This document shows, piece after piece, positions 6,001-45,000 of a stretch of 50,785 bases of DNA. The position numbers were made by a program. This DNA comes from Candidatus Velthaea sp. Its GTDB lineage: Bacteria; Vulcanimicrobiota; Vulcanimicrobiia; Vulcanimicrobiales; Vulcanimicrobiaceae. Numbering within the stretch: the first letter of the stretch is position 1; the number at the start of each line of letters is the position of its first letter. The stretch lies in the NCBI GenBank assembly GCA_050012475.1, contig JBEKHC010000043.1, positions 1 to 50,785 on the forward strand. The letters run 5' to 3'.

Positions 6001-9000
6001 TGGGCACGTACCGGGCGCCGTTTTTCTCCGGCATCAGCCAAGCCGTCTTGTCCTTCGTCATGGTGCTCGTCGGGCTGCTGCTCATGGCCGCGATCGTCAA
6101 TGCCCTCGCCCCGACCTTCGGCGGCCGGAAAAATCTCAACGCGGCGTTCAAGCTCGTCGCGTATTCGGCGACCCCGGGCTTTGTCGCCGGCGTCCTGAGC
6201 CTCTTTCCGCCGCTGGCGATGCTCGAGCTGCTGGCCGCGCTGTGGGGGCTGTACCTCTTCTACGTCGGGATTCCGGTGGTAATGCAAACGACGCGAGACA
6301 AAGCGCTGCCGTACACCGCGCTCAGCATGGTTTGCGCATTCGTGATCGGGTTCGTGCTGAGCATCATGATCGGCACGGTGATGGGCGTCGTGGGCTTCGC
6401 GACCGGCGGTTTCGGTCATCAAGCGGTGGGCGCAGTCGTGCCGGGCGCGGATGAAGCGCAAGCCAAAGCGGTTGCGGCGACGATCATCGGCAACGCGATG
6501 GGCGGCAACGACAGCGACAAACAGCAAGCCGCCAAAATGATCGACGGCGTGGCGCAAGCCGGCAAGGCGGCCGATGCCGCAGCGGCCAGCGGCGATACCG
6601 ATGCGCAAGCCGCGGCCGGCGTCGGCGTGCTCAAGTCGCTGGTCTCCGGCGGAAAGGGCGACGTCAAAACGATCCCGCGTGAAACGCTCAAAACGCTGCT
6701 TCCCGACAGCGTCGCCGGGCTTCCGCGCTCGACGGCCCAGAGCAGCTCGGGGAGCTTCGCCGGCATCGCTGCTTCGGGCGCGTCGGCCGTCTACGGCGAC
6801 GACAAGAGCGGAACCATCGAACTCAGCGTTGGCGACATGGGCAACATGGGCGGCCTCGCGCTGATCGCCAATCTCGGCGCCAACCTCACCTCGACCGACA
6901 GCGATGAGGGGTACACCAAAACCGTCGAGATCGATGGCCGCAAAGTGCACGAGCAGTGGACCGTGGCGGGGAAGAAGAGTGAGGTCTTCGAGATCATCGA
7001 CAATCGGTATGCCGTGAGCGCGAGCGGCTCGGGCGTCGCGATGGATACCACGCTGCAGGCGCTCGGGAGCGTCGACGTCGCGCGCTTCACGCAGCTGCAA
7101 CCGTAGCGGTCGCCACGCGGCTTGCGGCGTAGCCGCAAACGCCACGGGTTCGGCGCAATGCGCCGAACCCTGCTGCTAAGCGACTTCGTCGGGCCAGGCG
7201 GCGATGTGGCCCAAGGCGGCCGATTTGAGGACTTTGAGTCCGAGCGTGGCGCATTTCATGCGCGCGGGACTGATGCCGATCCCGACGTTTTCGATCACCG
7301 AGTCGACGGAAAGGTGCGCGACTTCTTCGAGGGTTTGGCCGCGAACGGATTCCAGCAGCATCGACGTTGCGGCGCGCGAGATCGCGCAACCCTTGCCCGA
7401 GAAACTGACGTCGTCGACGCGGCCCTCACCTGTCACGTGAATCTCGACGCGAATCGTGTCTCCGCATAACGGGTTGAGATCCTCCGCCACGGCGCTCGGT
7501 GCTTCGAGGTGGCCGAAGTTGCGCGGGTTGCGGTAGTGATCGAGAATGTACCCTTTGTAGAAATCGTCCATGGGTGCGAGCCGGGAAACCTCTGCCGCCT
7601 CTGGTTTTGCGGCGATCGGGACGCCGAAATCGGCGTCCGTATGGCATGAGTCGAAAATATTGGGAACGGTGGCGGAAGGTCGCGCGCAGTCCGGGGGCAC
7701 GAGCTAGGGATGCTCTGATTTCGTCCTGGCGAGGAGCATAGCGGCGAAGTTTGCTTGAGCAAATGAGCCGCGTAGCGACGATGTCCAGGGCGAAATCAGA
7801 GCATCCCTAGACGCGGTCGGCCAAGCCTTCGAGCAGTTCGATGAAGTTGGTCACCTTCACCCGATCTTTGCCGCTGGCGCTGCCCAAGCTCTTCTCGTGG
7901 TCGTCGATCGCGAGCCAATCATGCCAGTAGGCGACGCGCACGCTGCGCTCAGCGAGCAGCCGATCGACCGCCGCCAAGTCGGGTTGTACGGCGCGCTCGA
8001 GTTTTGCGGCGTCCTCGAGCAGCGCGCGCGCGGTTTCCATTGCGCAGGCTTTATTCGTGCCGATGACGCCGGAGGGGCCGCGCTTGATCCAGCCGGTCGT
8101 ATACTGTCCGGCTAGCGGCTTGCCGTCGTCGGCAAGCACGCGGCCGGCCGCATTGGGGATCACGTGCGCGCGTGAATCGAACGGAACGCCGGGCAGGGCG
8201 CGGCCCCGGTAGCCGACCGCGCGCAGCACCATCTGCATCGGAATCCGCTCGAACTCACCCGTTCCGACGGCGTTGCCGCGTTCGTCGAGCCGGTTGCGCT
8301 CGATCACCAGCGCTTCGACGGCATCCTTGCCGGCGATCTCGACCGGTGAGGTGAGAAAGCGCAAATGCAGGCGCCGCGGTTTGCCCGTGAGGGGCCGCCC
8401 GGCAAAATCGCGCAAGATCTCCAGGTTGCGCTGGAGTGCCTGCTGCGCGGCGATCTCCGCGGCGCTGGCCGTGTCGAGTTCGATTTCTTTGGGGTCGACG
8501 ATGATATCGGCGTTGTCGAGTTCGCCCAGCTCGCGCAGTTCTTTGGTCGTGAATTTCGCTTGCGCGGGGCCGCGCCGGCCGAAGATGTACACGTCGCCGA
8601 TCTCGCTTTCGGCGAGTTTGTCGAGCACGGGGTGCGGAATATCGGTCGAGCGCAGTTCGTCGACGTGCTTGGCCAGGATGCGCGCCACGTCGACCGCGAC
8701 GTTGCCCACGCCGACAACGGCCGCGGCCTTCGCTCCGGCCGGAAGGTGCACGATTTCGCTATGATCGGGATGGCCGCTGTACCAGGCGACGAACTCGGTG
8801 GCCGACAAACTGCCGGCGAGATCTTCGCCCGGAATGCCCAACCGCCGGTCGTGCGGCGCTCCCACGGCATAGACGATCGCGTCGTAATAACGGCGCGCGT
8901 CGTCCACGGTGAGATCGGTCCCGAAATTGACGTTGCCCAAGAAGCGAACGCGCGGATCTTCGAGCGTCTTGTGAAACGTCGTGATGACCGATTTGATTTT

Positions 9001-42000: not shown

Positions 42001-45000
42001 AAGAGCGCACGTCGATCGGTGATTGAACGTCACCGCTTGAAAACGCCGATCGAACTTGCGACGCGGCGGTCGCTCGGCGTACTTGCAGACCGCTTCATTC
42101 CGAACGGGTCGAAGCGAGAGACTCCGGTCAGCGCCTGCCGGCTTACCGTTTGACGGGACCGAACGCGTTTGCGGCGTCGCTTCGATCGTTCTCCCGTGTA
42201 TTGGCACGGTTCTCGACCAGCGACCGCTCCGATTGGCTAAATCGAAATGCGATCCATTGTGCGAAGTGATTACTTCGTTGTATCCGCGGGCGAACGCTGC
42301 GTAGAAGTACCGCGTCCTCAACAGAAAACCGGCGCCGCATGAGCTTAGGACGACCTAACCGTTTGTCCATTGGTGGAGTCAGTCATTGATGTGCGTACCG
42401 CTTGGACAGTGAGTGAGATGTTGCGCCGCGTTATACTTTTCATCACCGAATACTTTTGATTACCGAGACATTCGCACACAACGATCGCGACGGCGACGAC
42501 CATTGCGGAGGAGCCCATCGCTTACGTTCTTTCCCTCTTTGCGCGCGATGATAGGTGCACAGACATGCACGGCGATTGGTTTTTCGATACAGCGCGCGGA
42601 AAAATCGTGGCCGCTTTGCGCGGCCGCCGCGGAGCTTCGGCATTCGATCTAGCTCGTGAATTTGGCCTGTCGACCAACGCTGTAAGACAGCAGTTCATCT
42701 TGCTCGAGCGCGACGGGTTGGTGACGGCGTCGAGCGTGCGGCGCGGTAAAACCAAGCCGACCGTCGAATACCGGCTGACGCCTGCGGCGGAGAAGTACTT
42801 TCCGCAGCATTACGACCGGATGCTCAATGCGGTCTTGCGCGAAGTGCGCGCGAACGGTGGTGACGATGCGGTAGCGGCGATCTTCCAGTCGATGAGCCGT
42901 CGCCAGGCCGACCGGCTCAACGCCGACGTCGAAGAACGGCCGGTAGCCGAACGCGTCGCTGCGCTCACCGATCTGCTGCGCGAGTCTGGCGTCGAAGCCA
43001 AAGCGGAAGAAACGGCGGCCGGATTCACGATTCACGAGCAGAACTGTCCCTACGCCGAGACCGTCGGCGAACATCCCGAGATCTGCGGTTTGATCCGTTC
43101 GGTGATCCAGGACGTCGTCGCGCCGGGAGTCGTCCAGACGGATTCGCTCGCGACGGGCGGAACGGAATGTCGATTCGAAATCACGACCGGCAACAAGGCG
43201 GCGCGGGAGGATCCGGCAACCGGCGAGAGCTAACGCCGTCGAAAGCGGAGAACGGGCCCGACGAGTTGCTCGATCGCCAGCGCCATGACGAGCGCCCAAC
43301 ATTCGATGACGGAGAGATCGCCGCTCCGCGAAGCGGCCGGCGCGCTGACCGCGACGGCCGCCCCCATCGCCAACGACCCGGCGATCGCGCGCAGCACGCC
43401 GCGAACGATCGAGCGGCGCTCGCGCAGACCGGCGCGCACGTCGGCGAGCAGGCGCACGGGCGAGCGAGTTCCGATGTCCCAGATCACGAGCGCCGTCGTA
43501 TTGAGCAGAATAGCCAACGCGATTCGAACCGCATCGACCGCGAACCCGCTACTCACCCCAGCCCAACCGGCGAAGCGGCTTGGCGCGTAGCGCCAAACGC
43601 GACGGGCGGCTTGCGGCGCAGCCGCAAACGCCAAAGGTTCGAGGCAGTCGAACCCGGTTAGGCGACTTCGTCAGGCCACGTAGCAATCTGGCCGAGCGCC
43701 GCGGATTTGAGCACCTTGAGCCCGAGCGTCGCGCATTTCATGCGGGTCGGACTGATGCCGATCCCGACGTTCTCGAGCACCGTTTCTTTCGATAAGCGCG
43801 CGACGTCCTCGAGTTTTTGTCCGCGGACGGAATCGAGCAGCATCGACATCGAGGCTTGTGAGATCGCGCAGCCCTTGCCCGAGAAGCGGACATCGTCGAC
43901 GCGTCCGTCGTCATCGACGTGCAGTTCGACCCGAATCGTGTCGCCGCAGAGCGGATTGAAATCCTCGGCAACGGCCGTCGGCGCATCCATGTGGCCGAAG
44001 TTGCGCGGGTTGCGGTAGTGGTCGAGAATATATTCTTTGTAGAAATCGTCCATTGATCGGTCTCAGGCCAGCCGGAAGACGCGGGCAGCCTTTTCGAGTG
44101 CGCCGATGAGCACGTCGACGTCTTCCTCGCTGTTGTAGATGTAAAAGGATGCACGTGCGGTGGCGCTCCAGCCCATCTTGTCCATGAGCGGCATCGTGCA
44201 GTGATGTCCGGCTCGCACGCAGACGCCCTCGGTGTCCAAGAGCGAGGCCAAGTCGTGGGCGTGGATGTCGCCGAGATTGAAACTGATGACGCCGGCTCGA
44301 TCCTCAGCCCGCGGCGGCCCGTAGATCGCGAGGCCCCGTCCGGCCAACGTTTGCAGCCGCGCGAGTGCGTAGCGCGTGAGCTCGATCTCGTGCGCGCGCA
44401 CCCACTCCATGCCGATGCCCGTGAGGTAATCGACGGCCGCACCCAGCGCGATGGCATCGGCGATGTTGCTGGTTCCGGCCTCGAACTTCCAGGGCAGTTC
44501 GTTGAACGTCGACTCGGTATACTGAACCCGGCGAATCATGTCGCCGCCGGTTAGAAACGGCGGCATCGCGTCGAGCAGCTCGCGCCGGCCGTACAAGAAG
44601 CCAATGCCCGTGGGGCCGCACATTTTGTGCCCCGACGCGGCGAAGAAGTCGACCTCGAGATCTTGCACGTCGATCTTCATGTGCGGCACCGATTGTGCAC
44701 CGTCGACGAGCACGACCGCCCCCGCGGCGTGCGCGAGCGGCACGATCTCCTCGAGCGGCACGATCGAGCCCATCGTGTTGCTCACATGCGTGAGCGCGAC
44801 GAGCTTGACGCCGCTGAGCTTTTCCTCGAGATCGTCGAGCAGCAAGTTGCCGTCCGCGCCGGCGCTGATGAACCGCAGCTCGGTACCGGTTTTCGCAGCC
44901 AGTAGCTGCCAGGGCACGAGGTTCGAGTGATGTTCGAGTTCGGTGGTGAGGATCGCGTCGCCCGGCTTGAGGTTGGTCAAACCCCACGAGAAGCTGACGA

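What a model noticed while it worked through the whole genome (the two positions that open the first line are those of the whole stretch)
7176..43556. 36-kb proteobacterial-type nif island inserted at the native suf locus of a phototrophic Velthaea
A ~36-kb island sits between Yip1/CorA genes and the native sufUSDC operon. It holds nifHDKENX, nifB, nifTZZ, nifQ, nifSVW, its own sufBCDSU, fixABCX, ferredoxins, a NifI1/NifI2-like P-II pair, FprA and a truncated haemoglobin. It is a Cluster-I, Alphaproteobacteria-like Mo-nitrogenase set (NifH 91% to Bradyrhizobium, NifD up to 87% to Methylocystis) in a bacteriochlorophyll phototroph. It is a true chromosomal insertion, not a binning error. The genome has no sigma-54 or NifA, and the nifB-nifH spacer has no -24/-12 or NifA site, so the island must be run by other means. 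Its P-II pair is of the family's own kind. All nitrogenase carriers found in the family are phototrophs.
Evidence so far: Both flanks are native. In 3 of 3 congeners they are contiguous without the island (in G239:C46, 448 bp from the Yip1 end to the sufU start; also G291:C24 and G292:C6; calls 32, 33, 35). The island is syntenic gene by gene (65-97% aa) with G217:C50 of another genus, in other flanks. NifD-like genes are in 5 of 296 other family genomes: G217 at 92%, four others at 42-43%. All 5 carriers are among the 29 of 300 with pufM. The best named NifD hits are Methylocystis 87% and Rhodopseudomonas 86%. The best named NifI1-like hit is Ca. Velthaea, 74%. Three copies of the family's 98-nt hairpin repeat lie in the island, one of them in the nifD-nifK spacer (236 bp here, 53 bp in G217; calls 20, 31). 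Si [...]
(Added by a program. Inside this text positions count along the whole contig: contig position 1 is position 1 of the stretch shown here. "Call 12" and the like, gene names such as g00115 and contig names such as C1 are that model's own, and its searches are not shown. The text may have been shortened before it was handed on; [...] marks where a part breaks off. The agent that wrote the report below was given it as the finding of a first reader that could run no searches.)

Follow-up and report, generated by a model that had tools for sequence, protein, structure and literature searches.

The report
Borrowed nitrogen-fixation island in a phototroph
A peat-soil phototrophic bacterium of the Eremiobacterota carries a 36-kb nitrogen-fixation gene island taken from Alphaproteobacteria, which has lost its usual switches and been fitted with the host family's own regulators.

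Summary
Window 7107-43250 is a 36-kb insertion between the Yip1 gene and the native suf operon. It holds a complete Group-I Mo-nitrogenase set (nifHDKENBXQSVWZT), its own sufABCDSU-T, fixABCX, ferredoxins, a truncated haemoglobin and rubrerythrins. A NifDKEN tree puts it, with the island of another genus (G032), inside Alphaproteobacteria, nearest Telmatospirillum siberiense.

New points:
- The island's two ends are diverged copies of host suf genes (a sufS remnant with sufU' on the left, sufR' on the right), so the cargo sits where sufS-D-C would lie in a second suf operon.
- G032's island carries the same window-genus-type sufR', so the island probably spread from this lineage.
- The P-II pair matches the nifI1/nifI2 that lie between nifH and nifD in the family's anaerobe-type nif clusters.
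- The sigma-54 promoter and NifA site seen upstream of nifH in 54 of 59 relatives are absent here. rpoN is nearly absent family-wide.
- The split fixC comes from 88 nt missing in this assembly. A public-run contig has them.
- The right junction is bridged in three independent metagenome studies.

Activity and expression are untested.

The parts
5793..7106 (+). Yip1-domain gene, native left flank
   Evidence: Pfam Yip1 E 1.5e-21. 73% aa identity to G301:C46, where it lies next to sufU with no island.
7117..7175 (.). Double-hairpin REP/terminator element downstream of sufU', duplicated at 43606-43657
   Evidence: Part of the 7117-7571 vs 43606-44053 duplication, 79.8% nt. 28 near-full-length blastn hits on 22 contigs of G000.
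7176..7571 (-). sufU', an intact 131-aa diverged copy of the host IscU-like sufU
   Evidence: 82% aa / 80% nt identity to native sufU at 43658-44053. 84% aa to G301 sufU, 69% to G032 native sufU.
7575..7676 (-). Decayed remnant of the last 34 codons of a sufS' gene
   Evidence: 14 of 34 residues identical to the SufS C-terminus, ending exactly at the sufU' start. 0 of 1000 shuffles reach its score.
7705..7811 (.). Hairpin (MITE-like) repeat, copy 1, at the joint between the sufS' remnant and fprA
   Evidence: 46 near-full-length blastn hits on 30 contigs of G000, both strands counted.
7807..9174 (-). FprA-type ferredoxin-NADP+ reductase of the host phylum's kind
   Evidence: Pyr_redox_2 domain. 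Best named relatives are Ca. Velthaea sp. at 83%, then Eremiobacterota, Vulcanimicrobiaceae and Baltobacteraceae. 82% to the G029 copy that lies next to that genome's nifD. Absent from all 80 NifD-related loci fetched from other genomes.
9243..9623 (-). nifI2-like P-II gene
   Evidence: P-II domain. 63% identity to the second P-II gene between nifH and nifD in G162 and G029. Best solved relative is 9p1x chain G.
9620..10009 (-). nifI1-like P-II gene
   Evidence: P-II domain. 62-71% identity to the first P-II gene between nifH and nifD in G029, G162, G022 and G023. Best solved relative is 9p1x chain H.
10182..10613 (-). Truncated haemoglobin
   Evidence: Bac_globin E 6e-33. Homologues at 41-56% in 19 of the 80 NifD-related loci. 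Absent from the G032 island.
10822..11016 (+). 64-aa 2x[4Fe-4S] ferredoxin
   Evidence: Translation and conservation in G032. The overlapping minus-strand ORF 10606-10974 has no family match and is read as spurious.
11165..11573 (-). CheY-like single-domain response regulator, frameshifted in this assembly
   Evidence: G032 has an intact 137-aa receiver protein (Response_reg E 7e-9). The window's C-terminal 30 residues are in another frame. No reads were laid here.
11708..14363 (-). SIR2_2 protein, DegT-type aminotransferase, DUF6129-like ORF and nifT
   Evidence: Homologues in the same order in the Pseudolabrys MAG locus L048 at 57-76%. DegT is absent from G032.
14700..18046 (-). nifZ, nifZ, conserved ORF, iscA/hesB, fdxN, nifB
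   Evidence: NifZ domains E 1e-26 and 4e-32. nifB scores 689 bits against a cut-off of 344.
18047..18484 (.). nifB-nifH divergent spacer with no sigma-54 or NifA sites
   Evidence: In the 400 nt upstream of nifH the best -24/-12 match has 3 mismatches and there is no TGT-N10-ACA site. Blocks conserved with G032: GGCCCGATGTCGAGTGCGC, and a 26-nt block starting about 80 nt upstream of nifH.
18485..22772 (+). nifH, nifD, nifK
   Evidence: 456, 874 and 862 bits, all above the curated cut-offs. Cluster-ligand motifs present.
20977..21190 (.). Hairpin repeat copy 2 plus REP-like units inserted in the nifD-nifK spacer
   Evidence: Window 20978-21201 has no counterpart in G032.
22800..27728 (+). nifE, nifN, nifX, nifX-associated ORF, Rop-like ORF, fdxB, nifQ
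27930..33822 (+). Island's own sufA, sufB, sufC, sufD, sufS, sufU, sufT
   Evidence: SufB 66-72% to the copies inside Bradyrhizobium, Xanthobacter, Methylocystis, Rhodoblastus and Parvibaculum nif loci. Only about 50% to the native SufS and SufC.
33735..36525 (+). nifS, nifV, nifW
36527..40065 (+). fixA, fixB, fixC, fixX; the assembly lacks 88 nt of fixC at 38711|38712
   Evidence: A run X1 contig with no mismatches over 2183 flanking nt carries 88 extra letters at that point. An X6 contig also runs on unlike the window there.
40170..40282 (.). Hairpin repeat copy 3
40558..41996 (+). 2Fe-2S/rubrerythrin fusion protein and a rubrerythrin-like protein
   Evidence: 80-84% to G032. 41-66% in 6 of the 80 loci, all betaproteobacterial by their record titles.
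42393..42434 (+). 42-nt element also present upstream of nifI1 (10032-10073, same orientation relative to the gene)
   Evidence: 32 of 42 positions identical. Its first 18 nt are conserved exactly upstream of sufR' in G032.
42565..43233 (+). sufR', a diverged copy of the host SufR-type regulator, at the right end of the island
   Evidence: 86% aa / 82% nt to native sufR. Groups with native sufR and the G032-island sufR' at 99/95 inside the window genus's clade at 100/97.
43230..43634 (-). Small native ORF (unknown function) that marks the right edge of the insertion
   Evidence: 54% aa identity to an ORF between sufU and Yip1 in G301, 40% in G299/G300.
43658..47518 (-). Native sufU, sufS, sufD, sufC
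   Evidence: 80-94% aa identity to congeners.
47599..48324 (+). Native sufR, with a palindromic operator-like site at 47563-47588

Best explanation
This is a real chromosomal island of about 36 kb. It gives a bacteriochlorophyll-containing member of the Baltobacteraceae (Eremiobacterota) a complete aerobic-type (Group I / nifH Cluster I) molybdenum nitrogenase system of alphaproteobacterial origin.

Shown:
- The structural and cofactor genes nifHDK, ENB, X, Q, S, V, W, Z and T are present, together with a dedicated SUF Fe-S assembly set, FixABCX, several ferredoxins, a truncated haemoglobin and rubrerythrins.
- All of this has the gene order of alphaproteobacterial nif clusters.
- The cargo lies inside the remains of a second, host-type suf operon (<sufU' <sufS-remnant [cargo] sufR'>), placed in the 84-nt convergent spacer between Yip1 and the native suf operon.
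- There is no integrase, tRNA or target duplication.

Inferred:
- The island entered, or was built, by recombination at a duplicated or imported suf locus in the window's own lineage.
- It later passed, with sufR' attached, to another genus (G032).

How it most likely works (inferred):
- Light-driven ATP supply, with low-potential electrons from FixABCX and/or the FprA-type NADPH:ferredoxin reductase through the island's ferredoxins, feeds the NifH/NifDK enzyme.
- The SUF set, NifS and NifB-EN build the metal clusters.
- The globin and rubrerythrins limit oxygen damage.
- The proteobacterial control layer (sigma-54 promoters, NifA) has been lost. Transcription must start from new promoters of another sigma type.
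- Fast shut-off is probably provided by NifI1/NifI2 recruited from the family's own anaerobe-type nif system.
For: Gene content.

Origin. In the NifDKEN tree (61 rows: the window plus the 60 of 81 loci that had all four genes), WIN and G032 are sisters (SH-aLRT 100). They sit in a four-row set with Telmatospirillum siberiense and a 'Terracidiphilus' MAG (97), inside a 37-row, mainly alphaproteobacterial set (99). Proteobacterial loci share SIR2, DegT, nifT, nifZZ, fdxN, nifB, nifHDKENX, fdxB, nifQ and sufA (and sufBCDS) in the same order. None of the 80 loci has fprA, the P-II pair or sufR'.

Insertion. The G301 empty site aligns up to window 7075 and again from 43253. Contigs from runs of 3 different studies bridge the right junction: X1 40009-43442, X3 43075-43669, X6 42887-43576. 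20 runs from 16 studies, labelled peat, soil, wetland or simply metagenome, hold part of 34001-44000. A 99%-identical FprA is on record on a 480,680-nt contig. Host repeats have colonised the island.

Suf brackets. 7117-7571 matches 43606-44053 at 79.8%, and 42546-43187 matches 47597-48239 at 81.7%. The sufS remnant is beaten by 0 of 1000 shuffles.

Spread. In the SufR tree the window's sufR, sufR' and G032's island sufR' group at 99/95 inside the window genus's clade (100/97), while G032's own sufR is only 53-57% identical. The flanks of G032:C50 are about 58% aa identical to G000, like another G032 contig at 62%, while island genes are 53-98% identical. The window keeps the proteobacterial DegT and globin genes that G032 lacks.

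Regulation. rpoN gives 0 matches in G000. In the family 9 of 348 genomes match and 1 is over the cut-off, and neither island-bearing genus has a match. No NifA match is over the cut-off. Of 59 related loci with a usable nifH upstream region, 56 have a -24/-12 site (at most 1 mismatch), 57 have a NifA site and 54 have both in order. Both Eremiobacterota islands have neither.

NifI. The pair is 62-71% (NifI1) and 63% (NifI2) identical to the pairs sitting nifH-nifI1-nifI2-nifD in the family: NifI1 in G029, G162, G022 and G023, NifI2 in G162 and G029. The best solved relatives are the two P-II chains of entry 9p1x, which also holds a nitrogenase alpha chain.
Against: - There are no activity or expression data, so a working enzyme is inferred only.
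- The response-regulator gene is frameshifted in this assembly, and no reads were laid there.
- The assembly itself lacks 88 nt of fixC. Only one contig (X1) shows the intact form in full, and a second (X6) shows it in part. X1 may be the sample the window was assembled from.
- No promoter or operator could be identified. The one sigma-70-like match is at chance level: 1 found, 0.8 expected.
- sufU' is no closer to the window's native sufU (80.5% nt) than to G301's (80.0%). So in-situ duplication and import from a related strain cannot be told apart, and gene conversion could have pulled sufR' toward the native sufR.
- The tree is a quick search with a single-matrix model.
- NifI binding to a Group-I MoFe protein has not been shown anywhere that I know of.
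- The left junction rests on the contig alone.
Confidence: 0.72

Rival explanations
1. The island is a silent or decaying relic. It was acquired, but without NifA and sigma-54 it is not expressed, and it is slowly being lost.
For: No activator and no recognisable promoter. The response regulator is frameshifted. The assembly carries an 88-nt fixC deletion, which may be a real minor variant. Three of the four genomes of the genus, G000 included, lack the island.
Against: All 13 nif genes, the 7 suf genes and fixA, fixB and fixX are full-length, with scores above curated cut-offs where a cut-off applies. NifDKEN is 87% identical between two genera whose flanking genes are only about 58% identical, which points to purifying selection. 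Non-coding blocks in the nifB-nifH spacer are conserved between the two islands. The intact fixC exists in the population. Host regulators have been added rather than lost.
Confidence: 0.17
2. The island was inherited vertically from a common ancestor of the two genera and lost many times; or it moved from the G032 lineage into the window's lineage rather than the other way.
For: The two islands are sisters with similar branch lengths, 0.10 and 0.11. The left module (fprA, nifI2, nifI1) is only 53-69% identical between them, more diverged than the nif core. sufU' is not clearly the window lineage's own.
Against: The two islands have different flanks, and the window's congeners show clean empty sites. 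Island genes are much less diverged than flanking genes. G032's island sufR' nests within the window genus's SufR clade, next to the window's own copies, while G032's native sufR is only 53-57% identical. So at least sufR' moved from the window's genus to G032's. G032 lacks ancestral proteobacterial genes that the window keeps.
Confidence: 0.12
3. Assembly or binning chimera: a proteobacterial contig wrongly joined to Eremiobacterota flanks.
For: The genome is a 204-contig MAG with 5.3% estimated contamination. Both junctions lie next to dispersed repeats.
Against: One contig carries both native flanks in the correct order and orientation. The right junction is bridged by contigs in runs of 3 different studies. 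A syntenic island sits in other native flanks in G032. Host-genus repeats, the family-type nifI1I2 and fprA, and host-type sufU' and sufR' lie inside the island.
Confidence: 0.02

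Closest known systems
Alphaproteobacterial Group-I nif clusters (nearest here: Telmatospirillum siberiense, a Pseudolabrys MAG, Rhodopseudomonas, Rhodomicrobium; also Bradyrhizobium, Xanthobacter and Methylocystis, which carry sufBCDS inside the cluster)
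   Same: The gene families and their order on both sides of the divergent nifB|nifH spacer are the same. NifD is 82-90% identical and NifH 82-92%.
   Different: There is no sigma-54 -24/-12 site or NifA site upstream of nifH, against 54 of 59 relatives that have both. The genome has no nifA or rpoN. Added modules are unknown in those clusters: nifI1-nifI2-fprA on the left, sufR' on the right, and sufU' with a sufS remnant. The host is a different phylum.
nif genes of Candidatus Lamibacter sapmiensis (Baltobacteraceae; Pessi et al. 2024, PMC11180709, part 1 of 2 of the text read)
   Same: Same bacterial family. nifI1 and nifI2 are present. It was reported as the first link between Eremiobacterota and N2 fixation.
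   Different: That genome has nifH of Clusters III and IV, the anaerobe type. The comparable clusters here (G022, G023, G029, G162) have NifD only 42-43% identical to the window's, and G162's is most like the Clostridium pasteurianum-type MoFe alpha chain among solved structures. The window's island is Cluster I, of proteobacterial origin.
NifI1/NifI2 post-translational switch of anaerobic diazotrophs (solved with nitrogenase in entry 9p1x; entry title not seen)
   Same: Two adjacent P-II paralogues. Each is the best match to a different P-II chain of that entry. They are 62-71% and 63% identical to pairs lying between nifH and nifD in the same family.
   Different: Here the pair lies about 8.5 kb from nifH in an operon-like row with fprA, and it accompanies a Group-I enzyme. 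One survey reports strong negative co-occurrence of nifI1/nifI2 with nifT, Q, W, X and Z (PMC12903952, passages read).
Chromosomal nif islands acquired by transfer in other bacteria, such as the Pseudomonas stutzeri A1501 nif island (recalled, not checked here)
   Same: A large block of nif genes is inserted between conserved chromosomal genes and is absent from close relatives.
   Different: As I recall, those stay within Proteobacteria and keep the nifLA and rpoN control. Here the phylum boundary is crossed and the control layer is replaced.

Membership tests
Group-I (nifH Cluster I) Mo-nitrogenase regulon of Proteobacteria | nifH, nifD and nifK match the Mo-nitrogenase equivalog models above their curated cut-offs | tested here: met
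   456/394, 874/654 and 862/427 bits (score/cut-off)
Group-I (nifH Cluster I) Mo-nitrogenase regulon of Proteobacteria | FeMo-cofactor assembly genes nifE, nifN, nifB (plus V, Q, X) are present and full-length | tested here: met
Group-I (nifH Cluster I) Mo-nitrogenase regulon of Proteobacteria | Phylogenetic placement inside the proteobacterial Group-I clade | tested here: met
   NifDKEN tree, 61 rows. Nested in a mainly alphaproteobacterial set (SH-aLRT 99), nearest Telmatospirillum siberiense.
Group-I (nifH Cluster I) Mo-nitrogenase regulon of Proteobacteria | Metal-cluster ligand motifs of NifD and NifH | tested here: met
   All motifs searched for were found once each. Which motifs count as ligands was recalled from memory.
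Group-I (nifH Cluster I) Mo-nitrogenase regulon of Proteobacteria | Sigma-54 -24/-12 promoter and NifA upstream site in front of nifH | tested here: not met
   Neither the window nor G032 has them. Among 59 related loci, 56 have the promoter (at most 1 mismatch) and 54 have both sites in order.
Group-I (nifH Cluster I) Mo-nitrogenase regulon of Proteobacteria | nifA and rpoN in the genome | tested here: not met
   rpoN: 0 matches in G000 (93.8% complete). In the family 9 of 348 match and 1 is over the cut-off. No NifA match over the cut-off.
Group-I (nifH Cluster I) Mo-nitrogenase regulon of Proteobacteria | N2 reduction activity | not testable with these tools
   Needs a culture or an isotope assay.
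NifI1/NifI2 P-II regulators | Two adjacent P-II-domain paralogues | tested here: met
   PF00543 E 3e-24 and 6e-17. The two are 41% identical to each other.
NifI1/NifI2 P-II regulators | Orthology to pairs located between nifH and nifD | tested here: met
   62-71% (NifI1; G029, G162, G022, G023) and 63% (NifI2; G162, G029) identity to such pairs. No match in the 4 nif-less genomes tested: G299, G300, G301 and G033.
NifI1/NifI2 P-II regulators | Own position between nifH and nifD | tested here: not met
   The pair lies at 9243-10009, about 8.5 kb from nifH, next to fprA.
NifI1/NifI2 P-II regulators | Binding to the MoFe protein, relieved by 2-oxoglutarate | not testable with these tools
   NifD plus NifK alone exceed the 1000-residue limit of the complex predictor.
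Integrase-borne genomic island (ICE or tRNA-linked island) | Recombinase gene in the island, a tRNA or att target, and flanking direct repeats of the target | tested here: not met
   No recombinase among the island ORFs. No tRNA. The only terminal repeats are the diverged suf gene copies. A weak integrase fragment lies 2.7 kb outside the island at 3996-4442.
FixABCX electron-bifurcating flavoprotein complex | Four intact genes fixA, fixB, fixC, fixX | tested here: inconclusive
   fixA, fixB and fixX are intact. fixC lacks 88 nt in the window compared with G032, but a run X1 contig carries 88 extra letters at that exact point.

The most novel reading that the evidence does not exclude
A natural, complete re-wiring of an aerobic-type nitrogenase regulon in a phylum without sigma-54. 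After transfer from Alphaproteobacteria the island lost NifA/sigma-54 control and evolved new promoters. It recruited the NifI1/NifI2 switch from the family's own anaerobe-type nitrogenase, so that NifI now controls a Group-I MoFe protein. It also recruited a host ferredoxin reductase and a copy of the host SufR. This domesticated unit then spread between genera of phototrophic Eremiobacterota in peat, where its nifH would be read as alphaproteobacterial in amplicon surveys.
Probability: 0.4. Interest if true: 0.82.

Novelty: new variant of a known kind. Interest (0 to 1): 0.68.

Why it matters
The one paper found here that links Eremiobacterota to N2 fixation reports anaerobe-type Cluster III/IV genes (PMC11180709). 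My four full-text searches turned up no report of a Cluster-I system in the phylum.

An amplicon study of a subtropical peatland reports Eremiobacterota as more than 20% of the Sphagnum core microbiome (PMC12713642, passages read). An oxygen-tolerant-type nitrogenase in its phototrophs would therefore bear on peatland nitrogen budgets.

The island's NifH is 82-92% identical to proteobacterial NifH. Amplicon surveys would assign it to the wrong phylum.

For nitrogenase engineering, this is a natural case of a proteobacterial nif cluster kept in a host that lacks sigma-54 and NifA. Host-derived regulators have been grafted on, and the cluster brings its own Fe-S and electron-supply modules.

The suf-gene brackets also point to a way of moving an island without an integrase.

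Tried and rejected
- Expression: no RNA holder was listed for 34001-44000, so nothing can be said about expression. Stretches of 30001-50000 not covered by a listed contig in one or other run are not interpreted.
- Empty site for G032's island: its congener G033 is too diverged. The AcrB flank is 51% identical and TrmO gave no match.
- DraT (PF07357): no match in G000, but nothing matched in the control genomes either, so the result is uninformative.
- SufR operator: the palindrome in the native sufC-sufR spacer (47563-47588) has no second copy in the window. The half-site scan found nothing in island spacers.
- Sigma-70 scan of 17900-18600: 1 site found against 0.8 expected.
- The perfect palindrome CGGACAA-N6-TTGTCCG in the nifB-nifH spacer is not conserved in G032, so it was dropped as an operator candidate.
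- The two best-conserved spacer blocks do not occur upstream of proteobacterial nifH, and do not recur meaningfully in G000.
- Sigma-54 pattern over the whole window: 3 matches against 2.9 expected, none at a promoter position.
- Rfam and tRNA scans: nothing found.
- Earlier findings of this scan: none shown.
- PF00158 matches in G000 are generic AAA+ hits. The control genomes, archaea included, all match.
- One search compared the wrong stretch. It was repeated correctly.
- Complex prediction of NifI with NifDK was not run because the chains exceed the size limit.
- G300:C15, a second suf locus in a congener, is cut inside sufS and followed by ureE, DUF29 and SbcC-like genes. It has no nif link.

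Full report
WHAT IS THERE

The window is the whole contig C43 of a 5.36-Mb, 204-contig genome. The genome is 93.8% complete with 5.3% estimated contamination.

I chose ORFs by codon-position GC and scanned them against NCBIfam (69 ORFs) and Pfam (37 ORFs). The resulting map is as follows.

- Left flank: CorA (4572-5681, minus strand) and Yip1 (5793-7106, plus strand).
- Leftward block, all on the minus strand:
  - sufU' (7176-7571);
  - an FprA-type FAD/NAD(P) oxidoreductase (7807-9174);
  - two P-II genes (9243-9623 and 9620-10009);
  - a truncated haemoglobin;
  - a CheY-like receiver gene, a SIR2_2 protein and a DegT-type aminotransferase;
  - a DUF6129-like ORF, nifT, two nifZ, a conserved ORF, iscA/hesB, fdxN and nifB (16427-18046).
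- A small ferredoxin gene on the plus strand (10822-11016) lies between the globin and the receiver gene.
- Rightward block, on the plus strand from 18485:
  - nifH, D, K, E, N and X, a nifX-associated ORF, a Rop-like ORF, fdxB and nifQ;
  - sufA, B, C, D, S, U and T;
  - nifS, V and W, then fixA, B, C and X;
  - a 2Fe-2S/rubrerythrin fusion and a rubrerythrin-like protein;
  - a SufR-type regulator, sufR' (42565-43233).
- Native right flank: a small ORF (43230-43634, minus), sufU, S, D and C (minus), then sufR and a nifU-like gene (plus).

nifH, D, K, E, N, B, X, T, V and S all exceed their curated equivalog cut-offs. NifD and NifH carry the cluster-ligand motifs I looked for (which motifs count as ligands was recalled from memory).

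The island's GC content is 61.6%. The near flanks are 64-66% and the genome is 64.2%.

IT IS AN INSERTION

In congener G301 the order is MBL-fold gene, nifU-like, sufR, sufC, D, S, U, small ORF, Yip1, CorA, with nothing in between. By blastn the G301 site aligns to the window up to 7075 and again from 43253.

G299 and G300 have CorA, small ORF, sufU, sufS at the locus, with no Yip1 there. The G299 contig ends inside sufS.

The insert therefore lies in the 84-nt convergent spacer between the stop codons of Yip1 and the small ORF. It spans about 7107 to 43250.

Twenty public runs from 16 studies, labelled peat, soil, wetland or simply metagenome, hold part of 34001-44000. Seven of them hold at least half of the sampled words.

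I laid Logan contigs from four runs, each from a different study. The right junction is bridged in three of them:
- X1: 40009-43442;
- X3: 43075-43669, with no mismatches;
- X6: 42887-43576, with no mismatches.

X1 may be the source sample, so it is not independent support. A 99%-identical FprA is on record on a 480,680-nt contig. No reads were laid on the left junction, which rests on the contig alone.

WHERE THE CARGO CAME FROM

The 80 best NifD-related loci among GTDB species representatives are 82-90% identical. By their record titles they are Alpha-, Beta- or Gammaproteobacteria, apart from one MAG labelled Terracidiphilus.

Sixty of 81 loci (those 80 plus G032) had full NifD, K, E and N. 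With the window these gave a 61-row concatenated tree (1920 columns; quick IQ-TREE search, LG+G4):
- the window and G032 are sisters (SH-aLRT 100);
- they form a four-row set with Telmatospirillum siberiense and the 'Terracidiphilus' MAG (97);
- that set lies inside a 37-row, mainly alphaproteobacterial set (99).

So one acquisition, or one lineage of islands, is present in the family.

Gene-by-gene tblastn shows that SIR2, DegT, the DUF6129-like ORF, nifT, nifZZ, the conserved ORF, iscA, fdxN, nifB, the globin, the sufBCDS block and the rubrerythrins all have counterparts in proteobacterial nif neighbourhoods. The Pseudolabrys MAG L048, for example, shares 22 of the 43 island genes tested, at 44-90% identity. 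None of the 80 loci has the FprA gene, the P-II pair or sufR'.

THE ENDS OF THE ISLAND ARE COPIES OF HOST suf GENES (NEW)

- sufU' is 82% aa identical to the native sufU, and sufR' is 86% identical to the native sufR.
- At the DNA level, 7117-7571 matches 43606-44053 at 79.8%. This stretch covers sufU plus its downstream double hairpin.
- 42546-43187 matches 47597-48239 at 81.7%.
- Directly upstream of sufU', at 7575-7676, lies a decayed remnant of the last 34 codons of sufS. Fourteen of 34 residues are identical, the match ends exactly at the sufU' start, and 0 of 1000 shuffles reach its score.

The native operon reads <sufU <sufS <sufD <sufC sufR>. The island reads <sufU' <sufS-remnant [cargo] sufR'>. 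The cargo therefore occupies the place of sufS, sufD and sufC in a second, host-type suf operon that lies next to the native one.

Nothing marks site-specific integration. There is no recombinase among the island ORFs, no tRNA and no target duplication. A weak integrase fragment lies 2.7 kb outside the island, at 3996-4442.

I cannot tell whether the second suf copy arose by local duplication or came in with DNA from a related strain. sufU' is about equally far from the window's native sufU (80.5% nt) and from G301's (80.0%). In contrast, sufR' is closest to the window's own sufR.

THE ISLAND TRAVELLED WITHIN THE FAMILY

In G032, a different genus, the island runs from the FprA stop codon to the end of sufR'. 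The FprA stop is 10 nt from an RND-pump gene. The flanks are unrelated to the window's: RND efflux genes and a WYL regulator on one side, TrmO and others on the other.

Genes flanking the island on G032:C50 average 58% aa identity to their best G000 matches (21 ORFs on the left, 2 on the right). Another G032 contig averages 62% (12 ORFs). Island genes are 53-98% identical. So C50 is not a stray contig of the window's genus.

A SufR search over 348 family genomes shows a gap. The window genus's copies and G032's island copy are 75-86% identical to sufR'. The next best are 63-64%. G032's own sufR is 53-57% identical.

In a careful IQ-TREE tree of 21 SufR rows, with no unpublished genome among them:
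- the window's genus forms a clade at 100/97;
- inside it, the window's sufR, its sufR' and G032's island sufR' group at 99/95.

So sufR' was copied from a host of the window's lineage and moved with the island into G032's genus. In agreement, the window keeps the proteobacterial DegT and globin genes that G032 has lost.

A caveat: gene conversion between sufR' and sufR, which lie 5 kb apart, could inflate their similarity. It would not explain why G032's copy falls in this clade.

HOST-DERIVED REGULATORS AND ELECTRON SUPPLY

The first P-II gene has no match in the three congeners or in G033. It is 62-71% identical to genes in G029, G162, G022 and G023. The second P-II gene is 63% identical to its partner in G162 and G029.

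In G162 and G029 these partners lie in the order nifH, nifI1, nifI2, nifD, inside a second kind of nif cluster. The NifD of that cluster type is only 42-43% identical to the window's. G162's NifD is most like the Clostridium pasteurianum-type MoFe alpha chain among solved structures. This matches the Cluster III description for Ca. Lamibacter (PMC11180709).

The two island proteins each best match a different P-II chain of PDB entry 9p1x, which also holds a nitrogenase alpha chain (entry title not seen).

The FprA gene is of the phylum's kind. Named relatives are Ca. Velthaea sp. at 83%, followed by Eremiobacterota, Vulcanimicrobiaceae, Baltobacteraceae, Meiothermus and Chloroflexota at 60-68%. 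In G029 an 82%-identical copy lies 53 nt from that genome's nifD.

This left module is more diverged between the two islands than the nif core is: 53-69% aa and 69% nt, against about 80% nt for the core. I have no explanation for that.

G000 has only one other P-II gene, on contig C25.

A survey paper reports strong negative co-occurrence of nifI1/I2 with nifT, Q, W, X and Z (PMC12903952, passages read). The combination seen here is therefore unusual.

THE PROTEOBACTERIAL CONTROL LAYER IS GONE

- rpoN (TIGR02395) has no match in G000. In the family 9 of 348 genomes match and 1 is over the cut-off. Neither island-bearing genus has a match (0 of 4 genomes of the window's genus including G000, 0 of 2 of G032's).
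- NifA has no match over the cut-off. The PF00158 hits are generic AAA+ hits.
- As a control I took the 400 nt upstream of nifH in the related loci. Fifty-nine loci were usable. Of these, 56 have TGGYAY-N5-TTGCW with at most one mismatch, 57 have TGT-N10-ACA, and 54 have both in the right order. One locus, L060, was extracted with a wrong offset.
- The window and G032 have a best promoter match of 3 mismatches and no NifA site.

Their nifB-nifH spacers share blocks that are absent upstream of proteobacterial nifH. One is GGCCCGATGTCGAGTGCGC. Another is a 26-nt block that starts about 80 nt upstream of the nifH start codon.

A 42-nt element is shared between the regions upstream of nifI1 and upstream of sufR' (32 of 42 positions). 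Its first 18 nt are exactly conserved upstream of sufR' in G032.

I could not assign any of these to a promoter or operator type.

STATE OF THE GENES

Against G032, the window lacks 88 nt of fixC between short TTCCG repeats, which shifts the reading frame.

A run X1 contig (2271 nt, no mismatches over the 2183 flanking nt that align) carries 88 extra letters exactly between 38711 and 38712. An X6 contig also continues unlike the window past 38711. The intact gene therefore exists in the population.

The CheY-like gene is frameshifted compared with G032's intact 137-aa protein. No reads were laid there, so whether the lesion is real is open.

All other island genes are full-length against their profiles.

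RESIDENCE IN THE HOST

Three copies of a roughly 105-nt hairpin element lie in the island: at the sufS-remnant/fprA joint, in the nifD-nifK spacer and upstream of the rubrerythrin genes. The element gives 46 near-full-length blastn hits on 30 contigs of G000, both strands counted. Its core is present in congeners G300 (5 matches) and G301 (7 matches), but was not found in G299, G032 or G033.

Two further REP-like families also occur in island spacers.

LINK WITH PHOTOTROPHY

A reaction-centre family (PF00124) match over the cut-off occurs in 30 of 348 family genomes. All six true NifD carriers (G000, G032, G022, G023, G029, G162) are among them.

These carriers represent only two kinds of nitrogenase and a few gains among related genomes, so this is an association and not a test.

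The family tallies include 14 unpublished genomes in their denominators. None of them is a carrier, a reaction-centre-positive genome, an rpoN match or a tree row.

LITERATURE

- PMC11180709 (part 1 of 2 of the text read) reports the first nif genes in Eremiobacterota: Clusters III and IV, in Ca. Lamibacter.
- PMC11437008 (passages read) found no nif genes in its Baltobacterales MAGs.
- PMC9758169 (passages read) does not mention nitrogenase in Vulcanimicrobium or Velthaea.
- PMC12713642 (passages read) cites only Pessi et al. for diazotrophy in the phylum.

My four searches turned up no report of a Cluster-I nif system in this phylum. The library lacks most subscription journals.

VERDICT

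This is a real, well-bounded island acquired by horizontal transfer. It is an alphaproteobacterial Group-I nitrogenase system that has been domesticated in a sigma-54-free phototrophic lineage, framed by copies of host suf genes, fitted with the family's own NifI pair and ferredoxin reductase, and passed on to a second genus. Function is plausible but untested.

Noticed in passing
window 1-4500: A lower-GC stretch (59%) left of CorA holds a DUF4238 gene (312-1565) and a weak tyrosine-recombinase fragment (3996-4442; Pfam 26.7 bits, just under the 27.1 cut-off). It may be the remains of another mobile element, unrelated to the nif island's boundaries.
   Followed up: partly
L036 (G300:C15:66001-80000): Congener G300 has a second copy of the suf locus (nifU-like, sufR, sufC, sufD, and sufS codons 1-167) at about 76% nt identity to its first copy. 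It is cut inside sufS and followed by ureE, DUF29 and SbcC/D-like genes. So extra, decaying suf operon copies occur in this genus, unless the contig is contamination from a related strain.
   Followed up: partly
L049 (contig CAZMHC010000050.1): A MAG labelled uncultured Terracidiphilus sp. (Acidobacteriota) carries a nif cluster in the same four-row set as the window's island. It still has a sigma-54 promoter and one NifA site upstream of nifH. This is either another cross-phylum transfer or a mis-binned proteobacterial contig.
   Followed up: no
L172 (G162:C1:2344001-2363000) and L173 (G029:C7:300001-320000): The family's second kind of nif cluster has an unusual order, nifK-nifE-nifN-nifB-(nifV in G029)-nifH-nifI1-nifI2-nifD, with nifD last. 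In G162 a TnpB gene lies 3.6 kb downstream. In G029 an FprA gene 82% identical to the window's lies 53 nt from nifD.
   Followed up: partly
window 47563-47588: A perfect inverted repeat, GAAAGTC-N12-GACTTTC, lies in the native sufC-sufR divergent spacer. It is a likely SufR operator, occurs once in the window, and was seen in 0 of 100 shuffles.
   Followed up: partly
window 12581-12731 and 21090-21190: A REP-like unit with a CGGGCTTCGCCCG hairpin is repeated in tandem in the SIR2-DegT spacer and in the nifD-nifK spacer.
   Followed up: partly
window 7176-7700: The sufS remnant is fused in frame to sufU', giving a 174-aa ORF with a 43-residue N-terminal extension. The native stop codon and 9-nt spacer are replaced by CCC.
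   Followed up: yes
G022:C1, G023:C2, G033:C5, G162:C1: Several phototrophic family genomes show two or more separate pairs of reaction-centre L/M matches with identical scores. This suggests duplicated puf regions.
   Followed up: no
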